DNA of 64,000 nucleotides from the NCBI GenBank assembly GCA_013202295.1, contig JABMRT010000101.1:3241-67240 (forward strand), written 5' to 3'. Below the pieces are notes generated by a model. It did not search any database. It saw only the letters and a list, made by a program, of their open reading frames with translations, and was not told where the DNA came from. Numbering within the stretch: position 1 is the stretch's first letter; every line of letters begins with the position of its first letter. Below are positions 1-10,957 of this stretch, in pieces. This DNA comes from Candidatus Zhuqueibacterota bacterium. Lineage in GTDB: Bacteria; Zhuqueibacterota; QNDG01; JABMRT01. The position numbers and the translations under genes were made by a program.

Positions 1-392
1 GGCACACAAATCATGGACCGGGTACGAAAGCTGGATTTCTTATCATAAGCAGAATCAAATCGAGGGTCTTGATAGCAATCTTCAATCAGCAGAGATTCAC
101 GATGTTCAGCCACCCAGCCGGCTATCCCTGTGCCCATTTCTACCGTGAAGGTTTCCATGAGCTTGCCCTTCTCACCCGTGGCCACTTGAAAATGGAGTTT
201 GCCGTCTTTTTCATCATAGAGTAAAAGAGAACTGGCCTCGGCGCCCATCAGCTCCTTGCTGCTCTCCATAATTTCATGCATGAGTTCGGGAAGCGGCTTT
301 TTTTCTGAAATCTTTTGGGAAATCGCATGGAGAAATTGCAAGTTTTCATTCACCGATTGAAGCGATTGTACATCAGAATTCCGATCTGCCAT
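1..392 (-). CDS. GAF domain protein, N-terminal part only (continues beyond window start)
   Basis: Minus-strand translation from ATG at 392: MADRNSDVQSLQSVNENLQFLHAISQKISEKKPLPELMHEIMESSKELMGAEASSLLLYDEKDGKLHFQVATGEKGKLMETFTVEMGTGIAGWVAEH..., typical GAF fold signature; not in ORF track because truncated by window edge. Confidence 0.55.
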   Translation of the reverse strand, partial: MADRNSDVQSLQSVNENLQFLHAISQKISEKKPLPELMHEIMESSKELMGAEASSLLLYDEKDGKLHFQVATGEKGKLMETFTVEMGTGIAGWVAEHRESLLIEDCYQDPRFDSAYDKKSSFRTRSMICV

Positions 393-429
393 GACAGAAT
401 TCCTTTACGTTAGGATTATAAAAGCCGCA

Positions 430-1716
430 TCATGCAGCCCTTAATTTGAACCGGAAAAATCCAAAAATAAAACCAATGATGCCAACCAGAAAATTATAGA
501 TATCTCGAACACGGAAATAAAACTTATTGGCCAAAGAGATGCGCTTCTCTGCCACACCCATTTGAGGAGGCTGTACCCGAGGCACCCAGCCATAGGTTCC
601 CCGATCGATCAGCACCTTGTTCCAGATCCACTCCCCGCGATAGGCCACATCTGTGAGCAGGAGCAGCATCCCTCTGGGAACGGAGCGGATAACTGGAGCC
701 TTTTCTGAGGGTTGCTCTCGTATCGATGCCTGGGTATCCTTGATTTCCACAAACAGATGGTTGGATGCGTGCAAGGTCACATCCGATTTCAAACCCACAT
801 CCAGAGAGAGCCAGACCGTGGGTGCGAAAAACAGGATAAAGCTCAGGCAAAATCCGACACCTCCGCTCAGTATGCGGAATACAACCATAGGCACAAACTT
901 GCTGCGAATGATTAGAAAAACAACGCCTATCAGGAGCAATCCGAGAAGAACAGCAACCAGCGGATAATTCATCACCAGATGTTTGGGATTTAAAAGAATA
1001 AGCGCCAATGCTTCGGAATCAGCCAGAAAGTAACGTATATATCGAAAATAGAGAAAAACAAGCATGCATCCGTTGACCAGTCCTGCGCCAAGAATCTCCC
1101 ATTTCTGGATCGGTCCCAGTCTCAACATCGCAGGTCCGTCGTCCGGGAGCACTTCACTTGCCTTCTGCCAGACACATTTGTACAGCGTCATGGGATTTTT
1201 CTTACCCCTGGGTGTAAACCGTCCTTTTTTTTCCAAGTGATAGGATTTTTGATTTAGTTTCCGAATGGCACGCGCAGATATTAATATTTCATTCGCATTA
1301 GCTTTGTCCTCAATACGCGAAGCCACATTGACTGTGTCACCATAAATATCCCCTTTTTCAACCACAGCCCGGCCTGAATGAATGCCGATGCAAATTTTCG
1401 GGATTTTAGGATCGGACTTTCTCTCATGCTGCAATGCCTGCTGAATGGCAATGGACGCGTGCAATGCGTGAGTCGGTGATTTAAACGATGCCATCACCGA
1501 ATCACCAATGGTTTTGACAATCCTTCCATTATTTTTCTGAATAATTGGAAAGATCATCCGATTGAGAAAGTCAATCATCAGGCGGCCCATGACATCACCC
1601 CGTGAATCCCAGTACGTGCTGGAAGCAACCACATCGGTAAACAGAATCGTGACCTCTTTCTCAGTCACTTTGATATAACGCTGAATATTCTTGAAAAGTC
1701 GTTTCTGTGAAGGCAT
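430..1716 (-). CDS. Class III adenylate/guanylate cyclase with N-terminal catalytic domain followed by multi-pass membrane region
   Basis: ILFTDVVASSTYWD and KTIGDSVMASF metal-binding Asp motifs, GDTVNVASRIE; residues ~215-300 strongly hydrophobic (4-6 TM helices) plus final hydrophobic helix. Confidence 0.8.
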   Translation of the reverse strand: MPSQKRLFKNIQRYIKVTEKEVTILFTDVVASSTYWDSRGDVMGRLMIDFLNRMIFPIIQKNNGRIVKTIGDSVMASFKSPTHALHASIAIQQALQHERKSDPKIPKICIGIHSGRAVVEKGDIYGDTVNVASRIEDKANANEILISARAIRKLNQKSYHLEKKGRFTPRGKKNPMTLYKCVWQKASEVLPDDGPAMLRLGPIQKWEILGAGLVNGCMLVFLYFRYIRYFLADSEALALILLNPKHLVMNYPLVAVLLGLLLIGVVFLIIRSKFVPMVVFRILSGGVGFCLSFILFFAPTVWLSLDVGLKSDVTLHASNHLFVEIKDTQASIREQPSEKAPVIRSVPRGMLLLLTDVAYRGEWIWNKVLIDRGTYGWVPRVQPPQMGVAEKRISLANKFYFRVRDIYNFLVGIIGFIFGFFRFKLRAA

Positions 1717-1801
1717 GCGAATCCTTTAATCTATGATAGCAGATATGATGAAATACTGTACCTCAACGATATTCCCCCAACATTCTTTCTTTATTACAAA
1801 A

Positions 1802-3562
1802 TTACAAAGCAAAAGCAAGTCGCTTGACATTCAATAGATTTTTGTATGTAACATTATCTGTTGTGGATGTCCCACCCAGCGTGCCGCATCCCAATGTCAA
1901 CGAAGGCAGTAATCCATTGCCACCTCCGATACACCCCAAAGATCCACCGACATTTGTCAGGATCCGGCTGGCCGGCATCAGAGCCGCGTACCGCTTGGCC
2001 AGATCCTGATCGTGGGTATGAATAATAGCTGTATGACCGCTTCCCTCCTGTGTCAGAATATCTTTACAAAGTTTAAACGCTTCCTCTTCATTTTTGACCG
2101 TGAACAGAGAAAGCACAGGTGCTAATTTTTCATGCCCAAAGGGCCCGGTGTACTGCTCATTCTCTAAAGGAAGAATCAAAAGCCGCATCGTATCGTCCAC
2201 AGCAATCCCTGCTTTTTCTGCAATCGCCTGAGCCGAATGGCCCACCATAAATGCATTGAATCGATGCATGTCGGAATCATACATTTCTTCAAGTAGGAGT
2301 TCCATCTCATCTTGATTGAGTATTCGAGCACCATGTTTTTTCAGTGCTGTCAGGAATGCATCATGCACTGAAGCATCGACGACAAGATTGTTTTCTGAGC
2401 CGCAGATGACACCATTATCAAAACTTTTACTGGAAATATTCATCTCAGCAGTTTTTTCAATATCCGCATCTTGGGCGATGTATACCGGCGCATTGCCTGC
2501 ACCGACGCCAATCGCCGGTGTACCGGAACTATAAGCTGCCCTCACTATACTGGGGCCGCCGGTAGCCAGGATAAAAGACATATCCGGGTGACGCATGAAC
2601 ATGTTGGTTAATTTGCGGCTAGAACGTTCTCGAATCCATTGAATCAGGTGGACAGGTGCATGATGTTTCTTCAACACATCCTGAAGGATTTCACCGGTCT
2701 TGTTCCCCACAATCATGGCTTTACGATGACAGCTCATAATCAATGCATTGCGTGATTTCAAGCAAATAAGTGCTTTGAATATCATCGTGGGCACAGGATT
2801 GGTCAAGGGAATAATTCCCATAATAACACCCATTGGGCTGGCAATTTCTTCGATTCGATCGGCCTGATTATATTGAATCATCCCGTATGCCGGTTTCCCC
2901 GCCAATACATCATAGACACCCTGACTAGCAAATCGGATTTTTGCTACTTTATCAGCCATCACACCCAGTCCGCTTTCCTCAACCGTATCCGCGGCCAGTT
3001 CATCCGCATGGGTCACAATCGCATCTACCATATCATTGAGCAAGGCATCCACTTTATCTTCCGGCCAGTCTTGAAAGGTTGTTTGGGCCGCGTGCGCATT
3101 CTCAATCATCGAATCGACAAAGGGGGTTGATACTTCCATTGAGATAAAATCTGCCAGCTGCTTGTTCGCCTGTCTCACAATTTGAATGAGATTAGCAGAA
3201 AATGTTTTCAGTAATTGCGTGCCGATTTTCGGATGATTCGCCAACAAGGTCTCAAATTTCTCGAGCGAGAGCCAACGGGCAGTTACATCTGTATGGGCAT
3301 ACAAACTGGCTGAACGCGGCTCATGATCGATCAGCGAAAAATCGCCCATCACCATGCCGGGCTCCAGATAATTCAGCACGACATCTGTATCAAGCTCGCC
3401 TGTATCGTATTCGACACGCACCGTGCCTTCGTCAATAAAGTAACATCCATTCCCTTCACCACCTTGCTCCATAATACAGGTTCCTGTTGAGAATGTGACG
3501 GTTTCAAGGCTGTTATTGACAATGGCCATGTCATCTTCATTCAAAGCATTTAATAAAGTCAT
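1802..3562 (-). CDS. Fusion protein: N-terminal cyclic-nucleotide-binding (CAP-type) domain + CoA-acylating aldehyde dehydrogenase (EutE/PduP/AdhE-N-like)
   Basis: N-term GMVMGDFSLIDHEPRSASLYA cNMP-binding signature; C-term ALDH fold with GGPSIVRAAYSSGTPAIGVGAGNAPVYI and catalytic Cys context SFDNGVICGSENNLVVD. Confidence 0.75.
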   Translation of the reverse strand: MTLLNALNEDDMAIVNNSLETVTFSTGTCIMEQGGEGNGCYFIDEGTVRVEYDTGELDTDVVLNYLEPGMVMGDFSLIDHEPRSASLYAHTDVTARWLSLEKFETLLANHPKIGTQLLKTFSANLIQIVRQANKQLADFISMEVSTPFVDSMIENAHAAQTTFQDWPEDKVDALLNDMVDAIVTHADELAADTVEESGLGVMADKVAKIRFASQGVYDVLAGKPAYGMIQYNQADRIEEIASPMGVIMGIIPLTNPVPTMIFKALICLKSRNALIMSCHRKAMIVGNKTGEILQDVLKKHHAPVHLIQWIRERSSRKLTNMFMRHPDMSFILATGGPSIVRAAYSSGTPAIGVGAGNAPVYIAQDADIEKTAEMNISSKSFDNGVICGSENNLVVDASVHDAFLTALKKHGARILNQDEMELLLEEMYDSDMHRFNAFMVGHSAQAIAEKAGIAVDDTMRLLILPLENEQYTGPFGHEKLAPVLSLFTVKNEEEAFKLCKDILTQEGSGHTAIIHTHDQDLAKRYAALMPASRILTNVGGSLGCIGGGNGLLPSLTLGCGTLGGTSTTDNVTYKNLLNVKRLAFAL

Positions 3563-3602
3563 CTATTTGATCTCCATGATTAATAATAACTGATCAGGAT
3601 AA

Positions 3603-3640
3603 GTGTTTGTGTTCCAACGCGGAGCATGGGAACGAGGAAT
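3603..3640. repeat. Degenerate copy of short palindromic (REP-like) element found 3' of GH2 genes
   Basis: aagtgtttgtgttccaacgcggagcatgggaacgaggaa matches aagtgtttcgttccaacgcagagcattggaacgaggaa at 6461-6499 and 6783-6821. Confidence 0.5.
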
Positions 3641-3649
3641 CACAAACAA

Positions 3650-5461
3650 TTAATATTCATTCCGAACACTATCAAAATATTGTTTCATTACAATCCATGC
3701 CTTCTTTTTATCACCCTGATCAGAAAGTAATCCTTTCCGGTTCCATCCACTCTGATATTTGGGGTGCATTCGGCCCAAAGACCGGTAATCCACCAATAAC
3801 CAGGGACAGATACCAACCAGATTCGGCACATTTTCAAACATGGCAATCTGATCTATGTAAATCTGCTCCTGATATTCCTCGTTCCAATGTGCGGCCTCAT
3901 CAGGAGGGCCCTCATGATTTCCGTACAGTGCTTCCCCTCCGAATTCAGAAATAAGGACCGGTTTGTCCTCACATACCAGTTTCCATTTCGTTTCGGTTGG
4001 ATTACCCTGCCATGGCACATACCATCCTAAGTATTCATTCAGCGCAATGAAATCGCAATGATTATACAGAGTATCCCACACATTGAAAGTATGATTCTCA
4101 TACCCCTGCGTATTGATCACATGCGTGATAAGTCGCGTGGAGTCCAGCTCTCTGCACTGCTTCGTCAATGTGATCAGGGCCTGATTGCGATTGGGTGTAA
4201 AATGATACGTTTCGTTCGAAAGACTCCAGATTACAACACCGCAGCGATTTCGGTCCCGTTTGACCATCTCCCTGAGCATCAAGTCCATCTTTTGCTCAAT
4301 GCCAGGAGCTGAAAATGAAATATGCTGGTATATGGGAAGTTCGCTCCAGACCATCAAGCCCATCTTCTCGGCCATCCGGACCGTGTATTCATTGTGAGGA
4401 TAATGCGCCAGACGCACGAAATTGCAACCGAGTTCTTTTACCCAGCTGAGTAGTACCAACGCGTCGGACTTTGAAAAGGCCTTGGCCGCCCGAAGCGGCA
4501 TCTCCTCATGTAAATTAACACCCTTTAGAAATATCGGCTTCCCGTTCAGAACAATGTCCGGGCCCCGGATGTCAATGGTTCTAAATCCGATCTCATCCGC
4601 GAGTGTATCGGTTTCGCTTTCAATGATCACGTTGTACAGTTTCGGATGATCAGGCCACCATAGCTCTGGATGCGCTTCAAATTCGATTTCAGCAAATCCA
4701 CGATCATTCGATTGTGTTTTATATTGGATATGCAATTCTGGAATTCTGACCGTAATGGGCTGCACGGATTGGGCTCCGTCCAATTTCACCCAGCCCCTAA
4801 TCATCCCTTTGGAACTTTTATGTAATTGAATCGAATAGTCTTCGATATAAGATACCGGTGTTTCAATCAAATTGACATCGCGGGTAATGCCCCCATAATT
4901 GAACCAGTCATACCCTAGACCGGGCAGCCCGTCCTTAAATCGATGATTGTCCACCTTAACCACAATCCGGTTTTGGCCGGGCTTCACCTTATCAGTAATC
5001 TCAAACTGAAACGGGGTGAAACCGCCCTCATGCTGGCCAAGCGGTTCGCCGTTGAGATAGATATTCGCCAGATAATTCACAGCACCAAAATGGAGGAAGA
5101 GTCTTTTGTGTTTTTTTATTTCATGGTGGAATGTCTTTTTATACCAGACCGTGCCTTCCATATAGGTCAGTTCGGGGAGCTGTGTATTAAAATCACCCGG
5201 TACGTTTAAAACAGGGCCGCCGTCAAATGAATACTCCACAAAATCGGTTTTTTTCTCAGGTTGCTTTTCCTGCCATACCTGACGCCAGTTTCCGGTTCCG
5301 GTTGGATCAAGAATCACTTGCCACTTGCCGTTTAATGAGGTTGATTGTCGTGCAAATACATTGATCATCGAAGACTGTGCGAGGACAGCATGCTCAAAGC
5401 CTGAACCAATGAACAAAAATAGAATAGTGATTTGGATGAAATGATAAACACTGCTACACAT
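3650..5461 (-). CDS. Glycoside hydrolase family 2 (beta-galactosidase/beta-glucuronidase-like), secreted
   Basis: GH2 sugar-binding, Ig-like and TIM-barrel motifs (NHRFKDGLPGLGYDWFNYGGITRDVNL; VIWSLSNE acid/base); probable true start at internal Met 5461 giving signal peptide MCSSVYHFIQITILFLFIGSGFEHAVLAQS. Confidence 0.85.
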   Translation of the reverse strand: MCSSVYHFIQITILFLFIGSGFEHAVLAQSSMINVFARQSTSLNGKWQVILDPTGTGNWRQVWQEKQPEKKTDFVEYSFDGGPVLNVPGDFNTQLPELTYMEGTVWYKKTFHHEIKKHKRLFLHFGAVNYLANIYLNGEPLGQHEGGFTPFQFEITDKVKPGQNRIVVKVDNHRFKDGLPGLGYDWFNYGGITRDVNLIETPVSYIEDYSIQLHKSSKGMIRGWVKLDGAQSVQPITVRIPELHIQYKTQSNDRGFAEIEFEAHPELWWPDHPKLYNVIIESETDTLADEIGFRTIDIRGPDIVLNGKPIFLKGVNLHEEMPLRAAKAFSKSDALVLLSWVKELGCNFVRLAHYPHNEYTVRMAEKMGLMVWSELPIYQHISFSAPGIEQKMDLMLREMVKRDRNRCGVVIWSLSNETYHFTPNRNQALITLTKQCRELDSTRLITHVINTQGYENHTFNVWDTLYNHCDFIALNEYLGWYVPWQGNPTETKWKLVCEDKPVLISEFGGEALYGNHEGPPDEAAHWNEEYQEQIYIDQIAMFENVPNLVGICPWLLVDYRSLGRMHPKYQSGWNRKGLLSDQGDKKKAWIVMKQYFDSVRNEY

Positions 5462-5525
5462 TGCTGTTTCCCTTTTTCTTTCTCTTTTTATCACACCCGG
5501 ACTCAGTATGAAAATGATAAATACG

Positions 5526-5930
5526 CTACGCCTGCCGTATTTTTGAATTGAGATTATACCCCTTTTCGCCAAATGGCTGAAGCTTCTCAAGCCAGATTTC
5601 TTCGAGTAAAGTCAGTTCATCTTTCAAATTGAAGTTCTCGTCGTCTTTCACCTCTACAACTTCGAGTATTTCGAAGACAAACTTGTCTTCACCGAACTCA
5701 TCCCATTCCTGCTGAAGTGCTTCATTGCGATGACTTCCCATTGTGAGCATAAACTTATCTCTGTTCAACGGGCCCTTAAGGTTCAAACTGCTTCCGAGCA
5801 GCACCTTGCCGTTTGCCGTATTCTTGACCTGAAACACACCCGCCGGTTTCTTTCGTTCTTTATATTCTCTATTGATGTTCTGTCTTGATTTCATCACCGT
5901 CTCTATATTCATTTTGCCGTTCCAAAACAA
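5526..5930 (-). CDS. GIY-YIG nuclease-superfamily small protein
   Basis: GVFQVKNTANGKVLLGSSLNLKGPLNRDKFML matches GIY-YIG core (GxYxIxNxxNGKxYIGSSxNL...R); exact start uncertain (several in-frame Met). Confidence 0.55.
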   Translation of the reverse strand: MFWNGKMNIETVMKSRQNINREYKERKKPAGVFQVKNTANGKVLLGSSLNLKGPLNRDKFMLTMGSHRNEALQQEWDEFGEDKFVFEILEVVEVKDDENFNLKDELTLLEEIWLEKLQPFGEKGYNLNSKIRQA

Positions 5931-6000
5931 AATTTGGGAACCATGTAATAACCTTTTATCCCTGCACCACTGAATAAAAACCCTGAGGCGATCATGACTC

Positions 6001-6423
6001 TCAAATTAAATCCCATTTTTTCTCTACCCTTGTGATCTCATCTAGAACTCGTATTCTTAATGTGTCCCTACCGATAGGGCTTTGCCCGTAGATTGTTGGT
6101 CCATTCACCTTATGGTCATTATATGATTCAGGATTAAGCTCTTTCTTTATTGCTTCTGATAGATACGGCTTCATTTGTGAAAACATTATTGTCTCTGAAA
6201 AATCATTCCAGTTTGTCCCCTTATTGAAATCATCTATGGATATCATTTGGCGCAACGAATCAATAAATTCTCTCCTCATCGCCCTTGTGTCTTTCCTTTT
6301 TTCAATACCCCAATGAATCCATGGTGCAATTAAGGAGGCGACAGTTCCTGAAACCAAACCAAAAAATGATGGGAGAACGACAGTTAACCACAATGATGAG
6401 TCAGTCATAACAGAGCCTTTCAT
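6001..6423 (-). CDS. Hypothetical membrane-anchored protein
   Basis: ORF with N-terminal TM helix (SLWLTVVLPSFFGLVSGTVASLIAPWIHW); ORF-track start extends into palindromic repeat, likely real start MKGSVM at 6423. Confidence 0.45.
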   Translation of the reverse strand: MKGSVMTDSSLWLTVVLPSFFGLVSGTVASLIAPWIHWGIEKRKDTRAMRREFIDSLRQMISIDDFNKGTNWNDFSETIMFSQMKPYLSEAIKKELNPESYNDHKVNGPTIYGQSPIGRDTLRIRVLDEITRVEKKWDLI

Positions 6424-6432
6424 TTTTTCATC

Positions 6433-6517
6433 TCGTTCCCACGCTCTGCGTGGGAATGGCAAGTGTTTCGTTCCAACGCAGAGCATTGGAACGAGGAAAT
6501 TCCCTTTTCCCTGTTCC
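6433..6517. repeat. Palindromic REP-like element copy 1 (two adjacent hairpins)
   Basis: tcgttcccacgc-tct-gcgtgggaa (9-bp stem) then cgttccaa-cgcagagca-ttggaacg (8-bp stem), followed by ggaaattcccttttccctgttc; identical copy at 6756-6840. Confidence 0.7.
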
Positions 6518-6525
6518 CCATTCCC

Positions 6526-6750
6526 CTATTCCCCAGGTTTCAAAATCATCCCTGCCGGAATCGGCTGCCTCATAAATCCCGGCCCTTCAAATTCAACAGA
6601 GAAGGATTCTCCACCTCCTTTTTCAAAAAAGACCACTTCAAAAGGTACCGGGTCCGCTCCCAGTTCAATCAAACCGCTTTGCGTTTCTGCGGCGTGAAGT
6701 CCGTCATTCTCCACAACCTTCTGCCCGTTTACAAACATGCGCGAGCCATT
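6526..6750 (-). pseudogene. Remnant PA14-domain fragment produced by tandem duplication of the 3' end of the downstream GH2 gene
   Basis: [73 protein letters not shown] vs C-terminus of 6863..10924 product (...[73 protein letters not shown]); no plausible start, upstream part of ORF reads through hairpin repeat. Confidence 0.7.
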
Positions 6751-6755
6751 CATCT

Positions 6756-6840
6756 CGTTCCCACGCTCTGCGTGGGAATGGCAAGTGTTTCGTTCCAACG
6801 CAGAGCATTGGAACGAGGAAATTCCCTTTTCCCTGTTCAC
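6756..6840. repeat. Palindromic REP-like element copy 2, immediately 3' of GH2/LacZ-like gene
   Basis: Same two-hairpin sequence as 6433-6517, 323 bp apart. Confidence 0.7.
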
Positions 6841-6862
6841 CTTTTCCCCGTTCACCCTTCCC

Positions 6863-10957
<4,095 letters not shown>

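What the first reader, a model, noticed from the sequence alone, without database searches (positions are those of the whole stretch)
1..1716. Class III cyclase with inverted topology next to a GAF protein
The cyclase catalytic domain (FTD...IGD metal-binding Asp residues) sits at the N-terminus. It is followed by a 4-6-helix membrane segment and a ~120-aa C-terminal tail. Bacterial membrane cyclases normally have the opposite order. A GAF-domain gene starts 38 bp downstream on the same strand, GAF domains being cNMP binders. Together with the cNMP-ALDH fusion this forms a three-gene cAMP/cGMP module at the head of a glycan-degradation locus.
Basis: partly seen in the sequence, partly recalled or inferred. 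Interest (0 to 1): 0.5.

Follow-up and report, generated by a model that had tools for sequence, protein, structure and literature searches.

The report
Membrane adenylyl cyclase with periplasmic SH3b domain
This is a real but uncharacterised bacterial cAMP-making enzyme whose catalytic domain comes first, followed by four membrane helices holding a probably periplasmic SH3-type domain, and in its closest relatives it always sits beside a GAF-regulated protein phosphatase and a metallo-hydrolase, which looks like a self-contained cAMP signalling set.

Summary
Window 430-1716 (-) encodes a 428-aa protein with an N-terminal class III cyclase domain (aa 19-181). All six canonical catalytic residues are invariant in 27 homologues, and the Lys/Asp pair indicates ATP.

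The GAF ORF is genuine. A 99.95 %-identical contig extends past the window edge and shows a 428-aa GAF-PP2C (SpoIIE) phosphatase, not a PDE or HD-GYP, followed by an MBL-fold hydrolase.

Cyclase, GAF-PP2C and MBL stay adjacent in three different gene orders within one clade of the family. The cNMP-ALDH fusion joins only in the nearest relatives. Linkage to glycan genes is not conserved.

The GAF domain is closest to solved cNMP-binding GAFs. I read this as an SH3b-gated cAMP writer with a reader (GAF-PP2C, CNB-ALDH) and a probable eraser (MBL). All of this is inferred from sequence, none from assay. It is a new variant of a known kind, of moderate interest.

The parts
430..1716 (-). Complete cyclase gene (428 aa; stop codon at 430-432). 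Identical to NCBI HQ585_07975, candidate division KSB1 bacterium.
1174..1662 (-). Class III cyclase homology domain, aa 19-181. Metal Asp D28/D72, adenine-specifying K68/D123, transition-state N130/R134.
   Evidence: Pfam PF00211 at 77 bits. All six residues invariant in 27 sequences. Nearest solved structures are Ma1120, 3mr7 and Rv1900c/LipJ.
811..1113 (-). Membrane segment aa 202-302: TM1 (202-232), two short helices in a conserved loop (RYxRYxxADSE...LNP), TM2 (252-271) and TM3 (277-302, with a GGxG motif).
   Evidence: Kyte-Doolittle profile, AlphaFold2 model at pLDDT 83, charge and conservation statistics.
511..777 (-). SH3b (bacterial SH3) beta-barrel domain, aa 314-402, predicted to be periplasmic.
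451..510 (-). TM4, aa 403-422, followed by a basic cytoplasmic tail (RFKLRAA).
1..392 (-). First 130 codons of a 428-aa GAF-SpoIIE/PP2C phosphatase gene, cut by the window edge.
   Evidence: Pfam GAF. 100 % identical to the N-terminus of P0266, 'SpoIIE family protein phosphatase [candidate division KSB1 bacterium]', on the same 68,077-bp contig. The full gene is seen on L110 at 6001-7287.
1802..3562 (-). cNMP-binding domain fused to an acylating aldehyde dehydrogenase (586 aa), 85 nt upstream of the cyclase on the same strand.
   Evidence: Pfam cNMP_binding and Aldedh. NCBIfam EutE/AdhE-N type hits. Syntenic in L001, L004 and L110.

Best explanation
The gene encodes a homodimeric class III (short-arm, IIIc-like) adenylyl cyclase. 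Its cytoplasmic catalytic domain is tethered by its C-terminus to a four-helix membrane module. An SH3b domain is displayed in the periplasm between TM3 and TM4. I propose the following mechanism. The SH3b domain binds a periplasmic ligand, most plausibly a peptidoglycan or other cell-envelope peptide or glycan, as other SH3b domains do. This re-packs the TM bundle and, through the ~20-residue linker (aa 182-203), changes the geometry of the catalytic dimer and so the rate of cAMP synthesis. In this clade the cAMP is then read by the PDE/CyaB-type GAF domain of the adjacent PP2C phosphatase, giving protein dephosphorylation or partner switching as output. In the closest relatives it is also read by the CNB domain of the acylating aldehyde dehydrogenase. 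The adjacent MBL-fold phosphodiesterase-type hydrolase would remove it. What is shown: the domain architecture, intact catalytic residues, the SH3b fold, restriction of the module to cyclases, and clade-wide synteny. What is inferred: topology, ligand, direction of regulation, cAMP binding by the GAF and CNB domains, and PDE activity of the MBL.
Against: Nothing has been assayed biochemically. Topology rests on AF2 helices and the positive-inside rule, because no dedicated predictor was available. The conserved RYxRY after TM1 would then lie on the periplasmic face. The Pfam SH3_3 score (23.5 bits) is below the gathering threshold of 27. The PmGH GAF domain (4mcw), which has no cNMP ligand that I know of, scores about as well as the cNMP-binding GAFs. 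The MBL matches to PDE-type families are far below their cut-offs. How a C-terminal tether would control a CHD dimer is unknown.
Confidence: 0.55

Rival explanations
1. Anchor or localisation only. The TM-SH3b-TM module merely fixes the cyclase to the membrane and to the cell wall, for example at a particular envelope site. Activity would then be constitutive or controlled elsewhere, by transcription, bicarbonate or phosphorylation.
For: Known SH3b domains are targeting domains of cell-wall hydrolases rather than allosteric sensors. No transducer element such as HAMP, a coiled coil or a CTE is detectable between the CHD and TM1. The linker aa 182-205 is poorly conserved, at 30 %.
Against: The membrane module is found only with this CHD and keeps a fixed length and conserved motifs (RYxRY, LNP, GGxG, GFxWGF) across at least eight phyla or classes. 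That is more constraint than anchoring needs. C-terminal sensor control of a class IIIc CHD has a precedent (PMC4626032).
Confidence: 0.25
2. Alternative topology. The weakly hydrophobic stretch aa 233-250 crosses the membrane, so the SH3b domain is cytoplasmic and contacts the catalytic domain directly as an intracellular regulatory or dimerisation domain.
For: The stretch aa 233-250 (ALALILLNPKHLVMNY) is moderately hydrophobic and helical in the model. The SH3b domain has net charge +4.8 and no cysteines.
Against: This topology would put the basic loop2 (RSK) and the basic C-terminal tail outside, against the positive-inside rule. The stretch is broken by an invariant Pro and carries conserved Asp/Glu. 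The SH3b structural matches are almost all domains of secreted or cell-wall-associated proteins.
Confidence: 0.15
3. The neighbours are not cAMP readers. The GAF domain binds another ligand or none, and the adjacency of cyclase, GAF-PP2C and MBL reflects some other shared function, for example the phosphatase acting on the cyclase.
For: GAF domains bind many ligands. GAF-SpoIIE is a very large family, with 5660 hits at E<=1e-20, and most members are not next to this cyclase. The E of the NKFDE motif is replaced by L. The triad is absent from most of the cyclase family.
Against: Adjacency is retained through three gene-order permutations in different genomic contexts. The best structural-sequence relatives are the cAMP/cGMP-binding GAFs. 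A second cNMP-domain protein (CNB-ALDH) is recruited to the same locus in the nearest relatives.
Confidence: 0.25
4. The enzyme makes cGMP or a pyrimidine cyclic nucleotide, either as a Pycsar-like defence cyclase or as a guanylyl cyclase.
For: PADLOC PycC models hit weakly, best E 1.4e-10 at 39 bits. The CNB domain hits Pycsar effector models, and the precomputed Pfam labels for the MBL include Anti-Pycsar_Apyc1.
Against: The substrate pair is the adenine-type Lys/Asp and is invariant. The PycC scores are half the generic Guanylate_cyc score. No TIR or TM cNMP-binding effector is present. The CNB domain is fused to a metabolic enzyme. The Apyc1 family was not recovered in my own Pfam scan even at E 10.
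Confidence: 0.07

Closest known systems
Mycobacterium phlei MpAC (class IIIc CHD with a C-terminal YHS copper-sensor domain; Linder 2015, PMC4626032)
   Same: A single short-arm CHD lies at the extreme N-terminus with all six catalytic residues. The sensory module is C-terminal to the catalytic domain. In MpAC that C-terminal module activates the enzyme.
   Different: MpAC is soluble, with a 50-aa metal-binding YHS domain after an 8-residue linker. The protein here has a 230-aa integral-membrane module carrying an extracytoplasmic SH3b domain.
Ma1120 / Rv1120c-type minimal class III cyclase (PDB 4wp8, 4wp9) and Rv1900c LipJ CHD (1ybt)
   Same: These are the closest solved catalytic domains, at profile E 2.7e-34 and 4.5e-21. 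The Ma1120 pairwise alignment has no gaps in the dimerisation-arm region.
   Different: Ma1120 is a bare catalytic domain. LipJ has its regulatory alpha/beta-hydrolase domain N-terminal to the CHD. Neither is membrane-bound.
Rv1625c/Cya and mammalian-type membrane adenylyl cyclases (6TM-CHD)
   Same: Both are integral-membrane class III adenylyl cyclases whose TM domains are suspected receptors (PMC9433096 and PMC11606603, listed).
   Different: The domain order is reversed here (CHD then TM). There are four helices, not six, no helical transducer between the TM region and the CHD, and a folded periplasmic domain. The CHD is more similar to short-arm cyclases (E ~1e-34) than to Rv1625c-type ones (E ~1e-7).
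SH3b cell-wall-binding domains of lysostaphin, phage endolysins and NlpC/P60 peptidases
   Different: Those domains are appended to secreted hydrolases as targeting modules. Here the domain is inserted between two TM helices of a signalling enzyme, and its ligand is unknown.
Anabaena CyaB1/CyaB2 and PDE2/5/10 tandem GAF domains (cNMP-binding GAFs)
   Same: The GAF domain of the neighbouring phosphatase is most similar to these (E 1.8e-29 to 2.3e-19) and keeps N, K, F and D of the NKFDE motif.
   Different: There is a single GAF domain, not a tandem pair. The output is a PP2C/SpoIIE phosphatase, not a cyclase or PDE. Ligand binding is untested.

Membership tests
Class III nucleotidyl cyclase (CHD, Pfam PF00211) | Significant match to the CHD profile above the curated threshold | tested here: met
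   77.1 bits against a cut-off of 21.9, aa 19-177
Class III nucleotidyl cyclase (CHD, Pfam PF00211) | Two metal-binding Asp and the transition-state Asn and Arg | tested here: met
   D28, D72, N130 and R134 are invariant in 27 homologues
Class III nucleotidyl cyclase (CHD, Pfam PF00211) | Substrate-specifying pair Lys/Asp (adenylyl) versus Glu/Cys-type (guanylyl) | tested here: met
   K68 (IVKTIGD) and D123 (GDIYGD) are invariant. Assigning these positions to the canonical pair rests on my knowledge of mammalian AC C2 K938/D1018.
Class III nucleotidyl cyclase (CHD, Pfam PF00211) | Head-to-tail dimer and measurable cyclase activity | not testable with these tools
   No multimer modelling or assay was available
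Class IIIc subclass (short dimerisation arm) | Dimerisation arm shortened relative to IIIa/b (criterion quoted in PMC4626032) | tested here: inconclusive
   The closest solved CHDs are Ma1120, 3mr7 and Rv1900c. The arm region aligns to Ma1120 and 3mr7 without gaps. I did not count arm residues against a formal reference alignment.
Canonical bacterial membrane AC (Rv1625c/Cya type, TM-[HAMP/CTE]-CHD) | Membrane domain N-terminal to the CHD, connected by a helical transducer | tested here: not met
   The CHD starts at aa 19. All TM helices lie at aa 202-422. There is no HAMP or other Pfam domain.
Bacterial SH3 domain (SH3b, Pfam SH3_3 PF08239) | Sequence match above the Pfam gathering score | tested here: not met
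   20.3 bits (whole protein) and 23.5 bits (domain alone) against a cut-off of 27
Bacterial SH3 domain (SH3b, Pfam SH3_3 PF08239) | SH3b beta-barrel fold | tested here: met
Bacterial SH3 domain (SH3b, Pfam SH3_3 PF08239) | Binding of peptidoglycan or another envelope ligand | not testable with these tools
   Requires binding assays
cNMP-binding GAF domain (PDE/CyaB type) - neighbouring gene | Closest relatives are cNMP-binding GAFs, and the NKFDE motif is present | tested here: inconclusive
   The best PDB hits are CyaB2, PDE5, PDE10 and PDE2. The HD-GYP GAF 4mcw scores similarly. N, K, F and D are present but E is replaced by L. Ligand binding was not tested.
PP2C/SpoIIE phosphatase - neighbouring gene | Full-length SpoIIE/PP2C domain C-terminal to the GAF domain | tested here: met
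   The orthologue in L001 scores 146 bits with profile coverage 3-190 of 192. The window's own protein P0266 carries PF07228 and is 100 % identical over the 130 aa visible in the window.
Pycsar anti-phage system | PycC cyclase plus a cNMP-binding TIR or TM effector | tested here: not met
   Only weak generic PycC hits (39 bits). No TIR or TM effector is present. The CNB domain is fused to an ALDH.

The most novel reading that the evidence does not exclude
The SH3b domain is a periplasmic receptor for peptidoglycan or muropeptide signals, and it gates cAMP synthesis through a C-terminal four-helix transducer. That would make this the first cell-envelope-sensing adenylyl cyclase. Its cAMP would directly switch a GAF-PP2C phosphatase, and in KSB1 also an acetyl-CoA-forming aldehyde dehydrogenase. 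This would be the first cAMP-gated bacterial PP2C pathway, with a dedicated MBL phosphodiesterase as eraser.
Probability: 0.15. Interest if true: 0.75.

Novelty: new variant of a known kind. Interest (0 to 1): 0.45.

Why it matters
What the membrane domains of class III adenylyl cyclases do is a long-standing open question. Almost all models assume that signals flow from an N-terminal membrane or sensor domain into the catalytic domain. This family offers a compact 428-aa natural counter-example. Its catalytic domain comes first, and it carries a recognisable extracytoplasmic ligand-binding fold (SH3b), so receptor function becomes directly testable. The conserved neighbours also give a concrete, assayable hypothesis for cAMP output in poorly known phyla such as KSB1 and its relatives. 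Those outputs are a GAF-gated PP2C phosphatase, a CNB-gated aldehyde dehydrogenase and an MBL phosphodiesterase. No cAMP-gated bacterial PP2C has been described, to my knowledge.

Tried and rejected
- A look-up of the exact cyclase protein (P0001) for its contig found nothing on record. This was solved later through the GAF protein P0266.
- The search for related loci with the 20-sequence C-terminal alignment failed because no stretch was conserved enough. A 6-sequence alignment gave only 21 metagenome loci, none close to the window.
- The genome-contig scan with the full-length alignment was dominated by generic CHD patterns. Only 11 of 80 loci were full-length family members.
- The AFDB Foldseek library was not available.
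- The promoter and terminator scan of 1-6500 found fewer sites than the shuffled controls and nothing in the intergenic gaps. Co-transcription therefore rests only on the short same-strand spacers.
- Literature searches for an SH3b-bearing cyclase or a CHD with C-terminal TM helices returned nothing relevant. Two reviews I checked had no useful statement on domain order.
- The Pycsar reading was considered and rejected.
- The Apyc1 label on the MBL from precomputed annotations could not be reproduced with the Pfam copy, even at E 10.
- A conserved glycan-locus association was checked and not found beyond the nearest relatives.
Full report
**1. What is in the sequence**

On the minus strand the window carries three closely spaced genes:
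- 1802..3562, 586 aa
- 430..1716, 428 aa
- an ORF starting at ATG 392 that runs off the window start, with 130 codons visible

The spacers are 85 nt and 37 nt. The cyclase and the GAF ORF each have an AAAGGA Shine-Dalgarno-like motif 6-8 nt upstream of the ATG.

Pfam assigns the middle protein a Guanylate_cyc domain at aa 19-177 (E 1.6e-21, 77 bits, cut-off 21.9). It also gives a sub-threshold SH3_3 hit at aa 330-379. The edge ORF is a GAF domain (E 4.5e-8). The upstream protein is cNMP_binding + Aldedh. NCBIfam places the ALDH part with acylating acetaldehyde dehydrogenases of the EutE/AdhE-N type.

**2. The catalytic domain**

An exact copy of the protein exists in NCBI as [quoted passage not shown] on a 68,077-bp contig. 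More than 120 full-length homologues of 424-443 aa were found, at 38-90 % identity.

In an alignment of 27 of them, six residues are invariant:
- the two metal-binding Asp, D28 in FTD and D72 in IGD
- K68 and D123
- N130 and R134, in GDxVNVASR

From established knowledge of class III cyclases (mammalian AC C2 K938/D1018/N1025/R1029), K68/D123 is the adenine-specifying pair and N130/R134 stabilise the transition state. One chain therefore carries a complete set, as expected for a homodimeric adenylyl cyclase with two symmetric sites.

The closest solved catalytic domains are the minimal mycobacterial cyclase Ma1120 (profile E 2.7e-34), 3mr7 and Rv1900c/LipJ. The dimerisation-arm region aligns to Ma1120 and 3mr7 without gaps. 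This points to the short-arm class IIIc type, using the criterion quoted in PMC4626032. I did not do a formal arm count.

**3. The C-terminal half is not a tail**

Kyte-Doolittle analysis finds hydrophobic segments at ~206-226, 250-271, 274-298 and 405-423.

An AlphaFold2 model built on the 27-sequence alignment (mean pLDDT 83) gives this layout:

| Element | Residues |
|---|---|
| Catalytic domain | 18-181 |
| Helix (TM1) | 202-232 |
| Two short helices | 235-250 |
| Helix (TM2) | 252-271 |
| Helix (TM3) | 277-302 |
| All-beta domain | 314-402 |
| Helix (TM4) | 403-422 |

The family profile also hits secreted tandem-SH3b proteins at E 1e-11 to 1e-15. The Pfam SH3_3 score stays below the gathering threshold, at 23.5 against 27 bits.

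The architecture is therefore CHD - 3 TM - SH3b - TM.

**4. Topology**

The catalytic domain needs ATP and must be cytoplasmic. With three helices before the SH3b domain and one after it, the SH3b domain is periplasmic and the C-terminus returns to the cytoplasm.

Net charges averaged over 27 sequences support this:

| Segment | Net charge |
|---|---|
| Loop1 (227-251) | -0.9 |
| Loop2 (272-277) | +0.9 |
| C-terminal tail | +1.9 |

The alternative has aa 233-250 crossing the membrane and the SH3b domain inside. That would place both basic segments outside, and it would need a helix broken by an invariant Pro and carrying conserved acidic residues. I rate the periplasmic topology at about 75-80 %. 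No dedicated TM predictor was available.

**5. Is the membrane module a sensor?**

Pairwise identity by region is as follows:

| Region | Mean pairwise identity |
|---|---|
| CHD | 56 % |
| SH3b | 44 % |
| TM4 + tail | 44 % |
| Loop1 | 40 % |
| TM1, TM2, loop2+TM3 and linker 182-205 | 24-34 % |

Conserved motifs include RYxRYxxADSE, LNP, GGxG in TM3, SxHLFVE, WNKVLI, YGW, GVPEKR and GFxWGF.

I searched a profile of the module alone (aa 196-428) against 1.84 billion representative proteins. It found 187 hits at E<=1e-3 and about 60 at E<=1e-30. Every full-length hit is 420-448 aa, with the module at ~200-430. The 12 hits I retrieved, including all the odd-length ones, carry CHD sequence in front of the module or are contig-truncated fragments. 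The exceptions are one apparent chimera and the tandem-SH3b proteins.

The module is thus a dedicated partner of this CHD, not a shuffled sensor cassette.

Named lineages include KSB1, Calditrichia, Thermodesulfobacteriota, several Gammaproteobacteria, Mariprofundaceae, Sulfurimonadaceae, Planctomycetota and Cytophagia. All are from MAGs and all are diderm.

**6. The GAF gene and what lies beyond the window**

A homology search with the orthologue's GAF protein returned P0266, a 428-aa [quoted passage not shown] on a 68,077-bp contig. The 130 residues visible in the window are 100 % identical to its N-terminus.

Its JGI contig (L110) is 99.95 % identical to window 1-6392 and extends 6.4 kb further. 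The gene order there, all on one strand, is:
1. GH2
2. cNMP-ALDH
3. cyclase
4. GAF-SpoIIE (428 aa)
5. MBL-fold hydrolase (266 aa, with a THFHWDH motif)
6. TonB-dependent receptor (916 aa)
7. a 541-aa protein

The GAF ORF is therefore real. Its output is a PP2C phosphatase, not a PDE or HD-GYP.

Its GAF domain, analysed in the orthologue that is 85 % identical over the 130-aa window fragment, is most similar to these solved structures:

| Structure | E-value |
|---|---|
| Anabaena CyaB2 (cAMP-binding) | 1.8e-29 |
| Persephonella HD-GYP GAF | 1.4e-27 |
| PDE5 | 2.5e-26 |
| PDE10 | 3.5e-20 |
| PDE2 | 2.3e-19 |

It keeps N, K, F and D of the NKFDE motif (VINKKKGVIFTEDDL). This places it in the cNMP-binding branch by sequence. 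It does not prove the ligand.

**7. Synteny**

Neighbourhoods were examined for about 35 loci.

The cyclase, orthologous GAF-SpoIIE and orthologous MBL genes are adjacent in three different orders:

| Gene order | Loci |
|---|---|
| cyclase-GAF-MBL | window/L110, L001, L112 |
| GAF-MBL-cyclase | L087, L089/L090 |
| MBL-cyclase-GAF (4-nt MBL/cyclase overlap) | L111 |
| cyclase-MBL only | L004 |

The flanks are otherwise unrelated. Examples include DNA polymerase III/ImuB, GH97, beta-lactamase, an ECF sigma factor and BlaR.

In an NJ tree these loci form a single clade. No locus outside it with adequate flanks has either partner. L086, inside the clade, has only a PAS-SpoIIE gene 3 kb away.

Fourteen cyclase clusters and GAF-SpoIIE clusters share the same longest-contig length, which points to many more co-located pairs.

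The cNMP-ALDH fusion is adjacent only in the window/L110, L001 and L004 lineages. Glycan genes are next to the module in the window: three GH2 genes, YdjC and ROK. Some also occur near relatives, such as GH9 in L001 and GH97 in L111. They are absent in L004, L087 and L088, so that link is not conserved. The module also sits in the middle of the region, not at its head.

**8. The MBL protein**

Pfam gives only Lactamase_B and Lactamase_B_2. NCBIfam gives weak hits, far below cut-off, to RNase Z, PhnP and "cyclic nucleotide-degrading phosphodiesterase" NF041851. These are all in the phosphodiesterase branch of the MBL superfamily.

Precomputed annotations list Anti-Pycsar_Apyc1. I could not reproduce that hit. 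A cAMP phosphodiesterase role is a reasonable inference from context, nothing more.

**9. Mechanism proposed**

- Shown: an intact adenylyl-cyclase catalytic set, the CHD-3TM-SH3b-TM architecture, exclusivity and conservation of the module, and a clade-wide triad with GAF-PP2C and MBL.
- Inferred: the SH3b domain binds an envelope ligand in the periplasm. This changes packing of the (probably 8-helix) dimer bundle and, via aa 182-203, the productive head-to-tail arrangement of the two catalytic domains. cAMP then binds the GAF domain to control the PP2C phosphatase. In the nearest relatives it also binds the CNB domain of the acylating ALDH, whose phosphate-binding cassette Arg and catalytic Cys are present (read). 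The MBL enzyme would terminate the signal.

The M. phlei CHD-YHS cyclase is an experimentally supported precedent for a C-terminal sensor activating an N-terminal class IIIc domain (PMC4626032).

**10. Rivals**

- Anchor or localisation only (0.25)
- Cytoplasmic SH3b through an extra TM pass (0.15)
- Neighbours that are not cAMP readers (0.25)
- A cGMP or pyrimidine product, or a Pycsar system (0.07). PADLOC gives only weak generic PycC hits, at 39 bits against 77 for the generic CHD model, and no TIR or TM effector is present.

**11. Novelty and verdict**

Databases annotate these proteins only as "adenylate/guanylate cyclase domain-containing" or "hypothetical". Only PF00211 is recorded for them. 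No paper in the searchable library describes an SH3b-bearing cyclase or a CHD followed by TM helices.

This is a new architectural variant of a well-known enzyme class, with a coherent but untested signalling context. Interest is moderate at 0.45. It is an attractive, compact system for asking what cyclase membrane domains sense, and it may provide a first cAMP-gated PP2C. Everything beyond architecture and synteny is inference.

Noticed in passing
window 3611-3639, 6435-6498, 6757-6820 (weaker copy at 5919-5947): A REP-like palindromic element (GTTCCAACGCAGAGCATTGGAACGAGGAA) occurs singly and as inverted pairs in intergenic DNA. Its translations give the recurring 'NAEHGNEE / AEHWNEE / RRAWERDE' pseudo-ORFs.
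   Followed up: partly
window 6427-7084: A tandem duplication of ~322-337 nt (80-94 % identity) copies the 3' end of the 1353-aa GH2 gene, which encodes the C-terminus of its PA14 domain. The ORF at 6526-6870 (-) is a duplicated gene fragment, not an independent gene.
   Followed up: partly
window 5526-5930 (-): A 134-aa ORF lies between two GH2 genes and has no Pfam hit at E 1e-5. By eye its sequence resembles a GIY-YIG nuclease, which might suggest a small mobile or selfish insert. This was not tested.
   Followed up: no
L110 8433-12840 (beyond the window start): Directly downstream of the MBL gene, on the same strand, lie a CarboxypepD_reg/Plug TonB-dependent receptor (916 aa) and a 541-aa protein. 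The signalling genes are therefore embedded inside a glycan-uptake and glycan-degradation region, not at its end.
   Followed up: partly
Homologues of the GAF-SpoIIE protein: The GAF-SpoIIE family is very large, with 5660 hits at E<=1e-20, and unusually conserved, at 53-65 % identity across many lineages. A frequent ~554-aa variant has an added response-regulator receiver domain (PF00072).
   Followed up: no
L087 10349-11868 (-): Two SpoIIAA-like (STAS, weak Pfam) genes lie 3-4.5 kb downstream of the GAF-SpoIIE/MBL/cyclase triad. They are candidate substrates of the PP2C phosphatase in a partner-switching scheme.
   Followed up: no
L004 4747-6027 and 10257-11849; L006 9412-12448: A second, CNB-less aldehyde dehydrogenase and a DUF362 protein flank the cyclase in two KSB1-type loci that are only 41 % identical in the cyclase. 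This hints at a recurring cyclase-ALDH association.
   Followed up: partly
L001 7797-7991: A 64-aa ORF with no Pfam hit was called between the cNMP-ALDH and cyclase genes in the 74 %-identical relative. The window has only an 85-nt spacer there.
   Followed up: no
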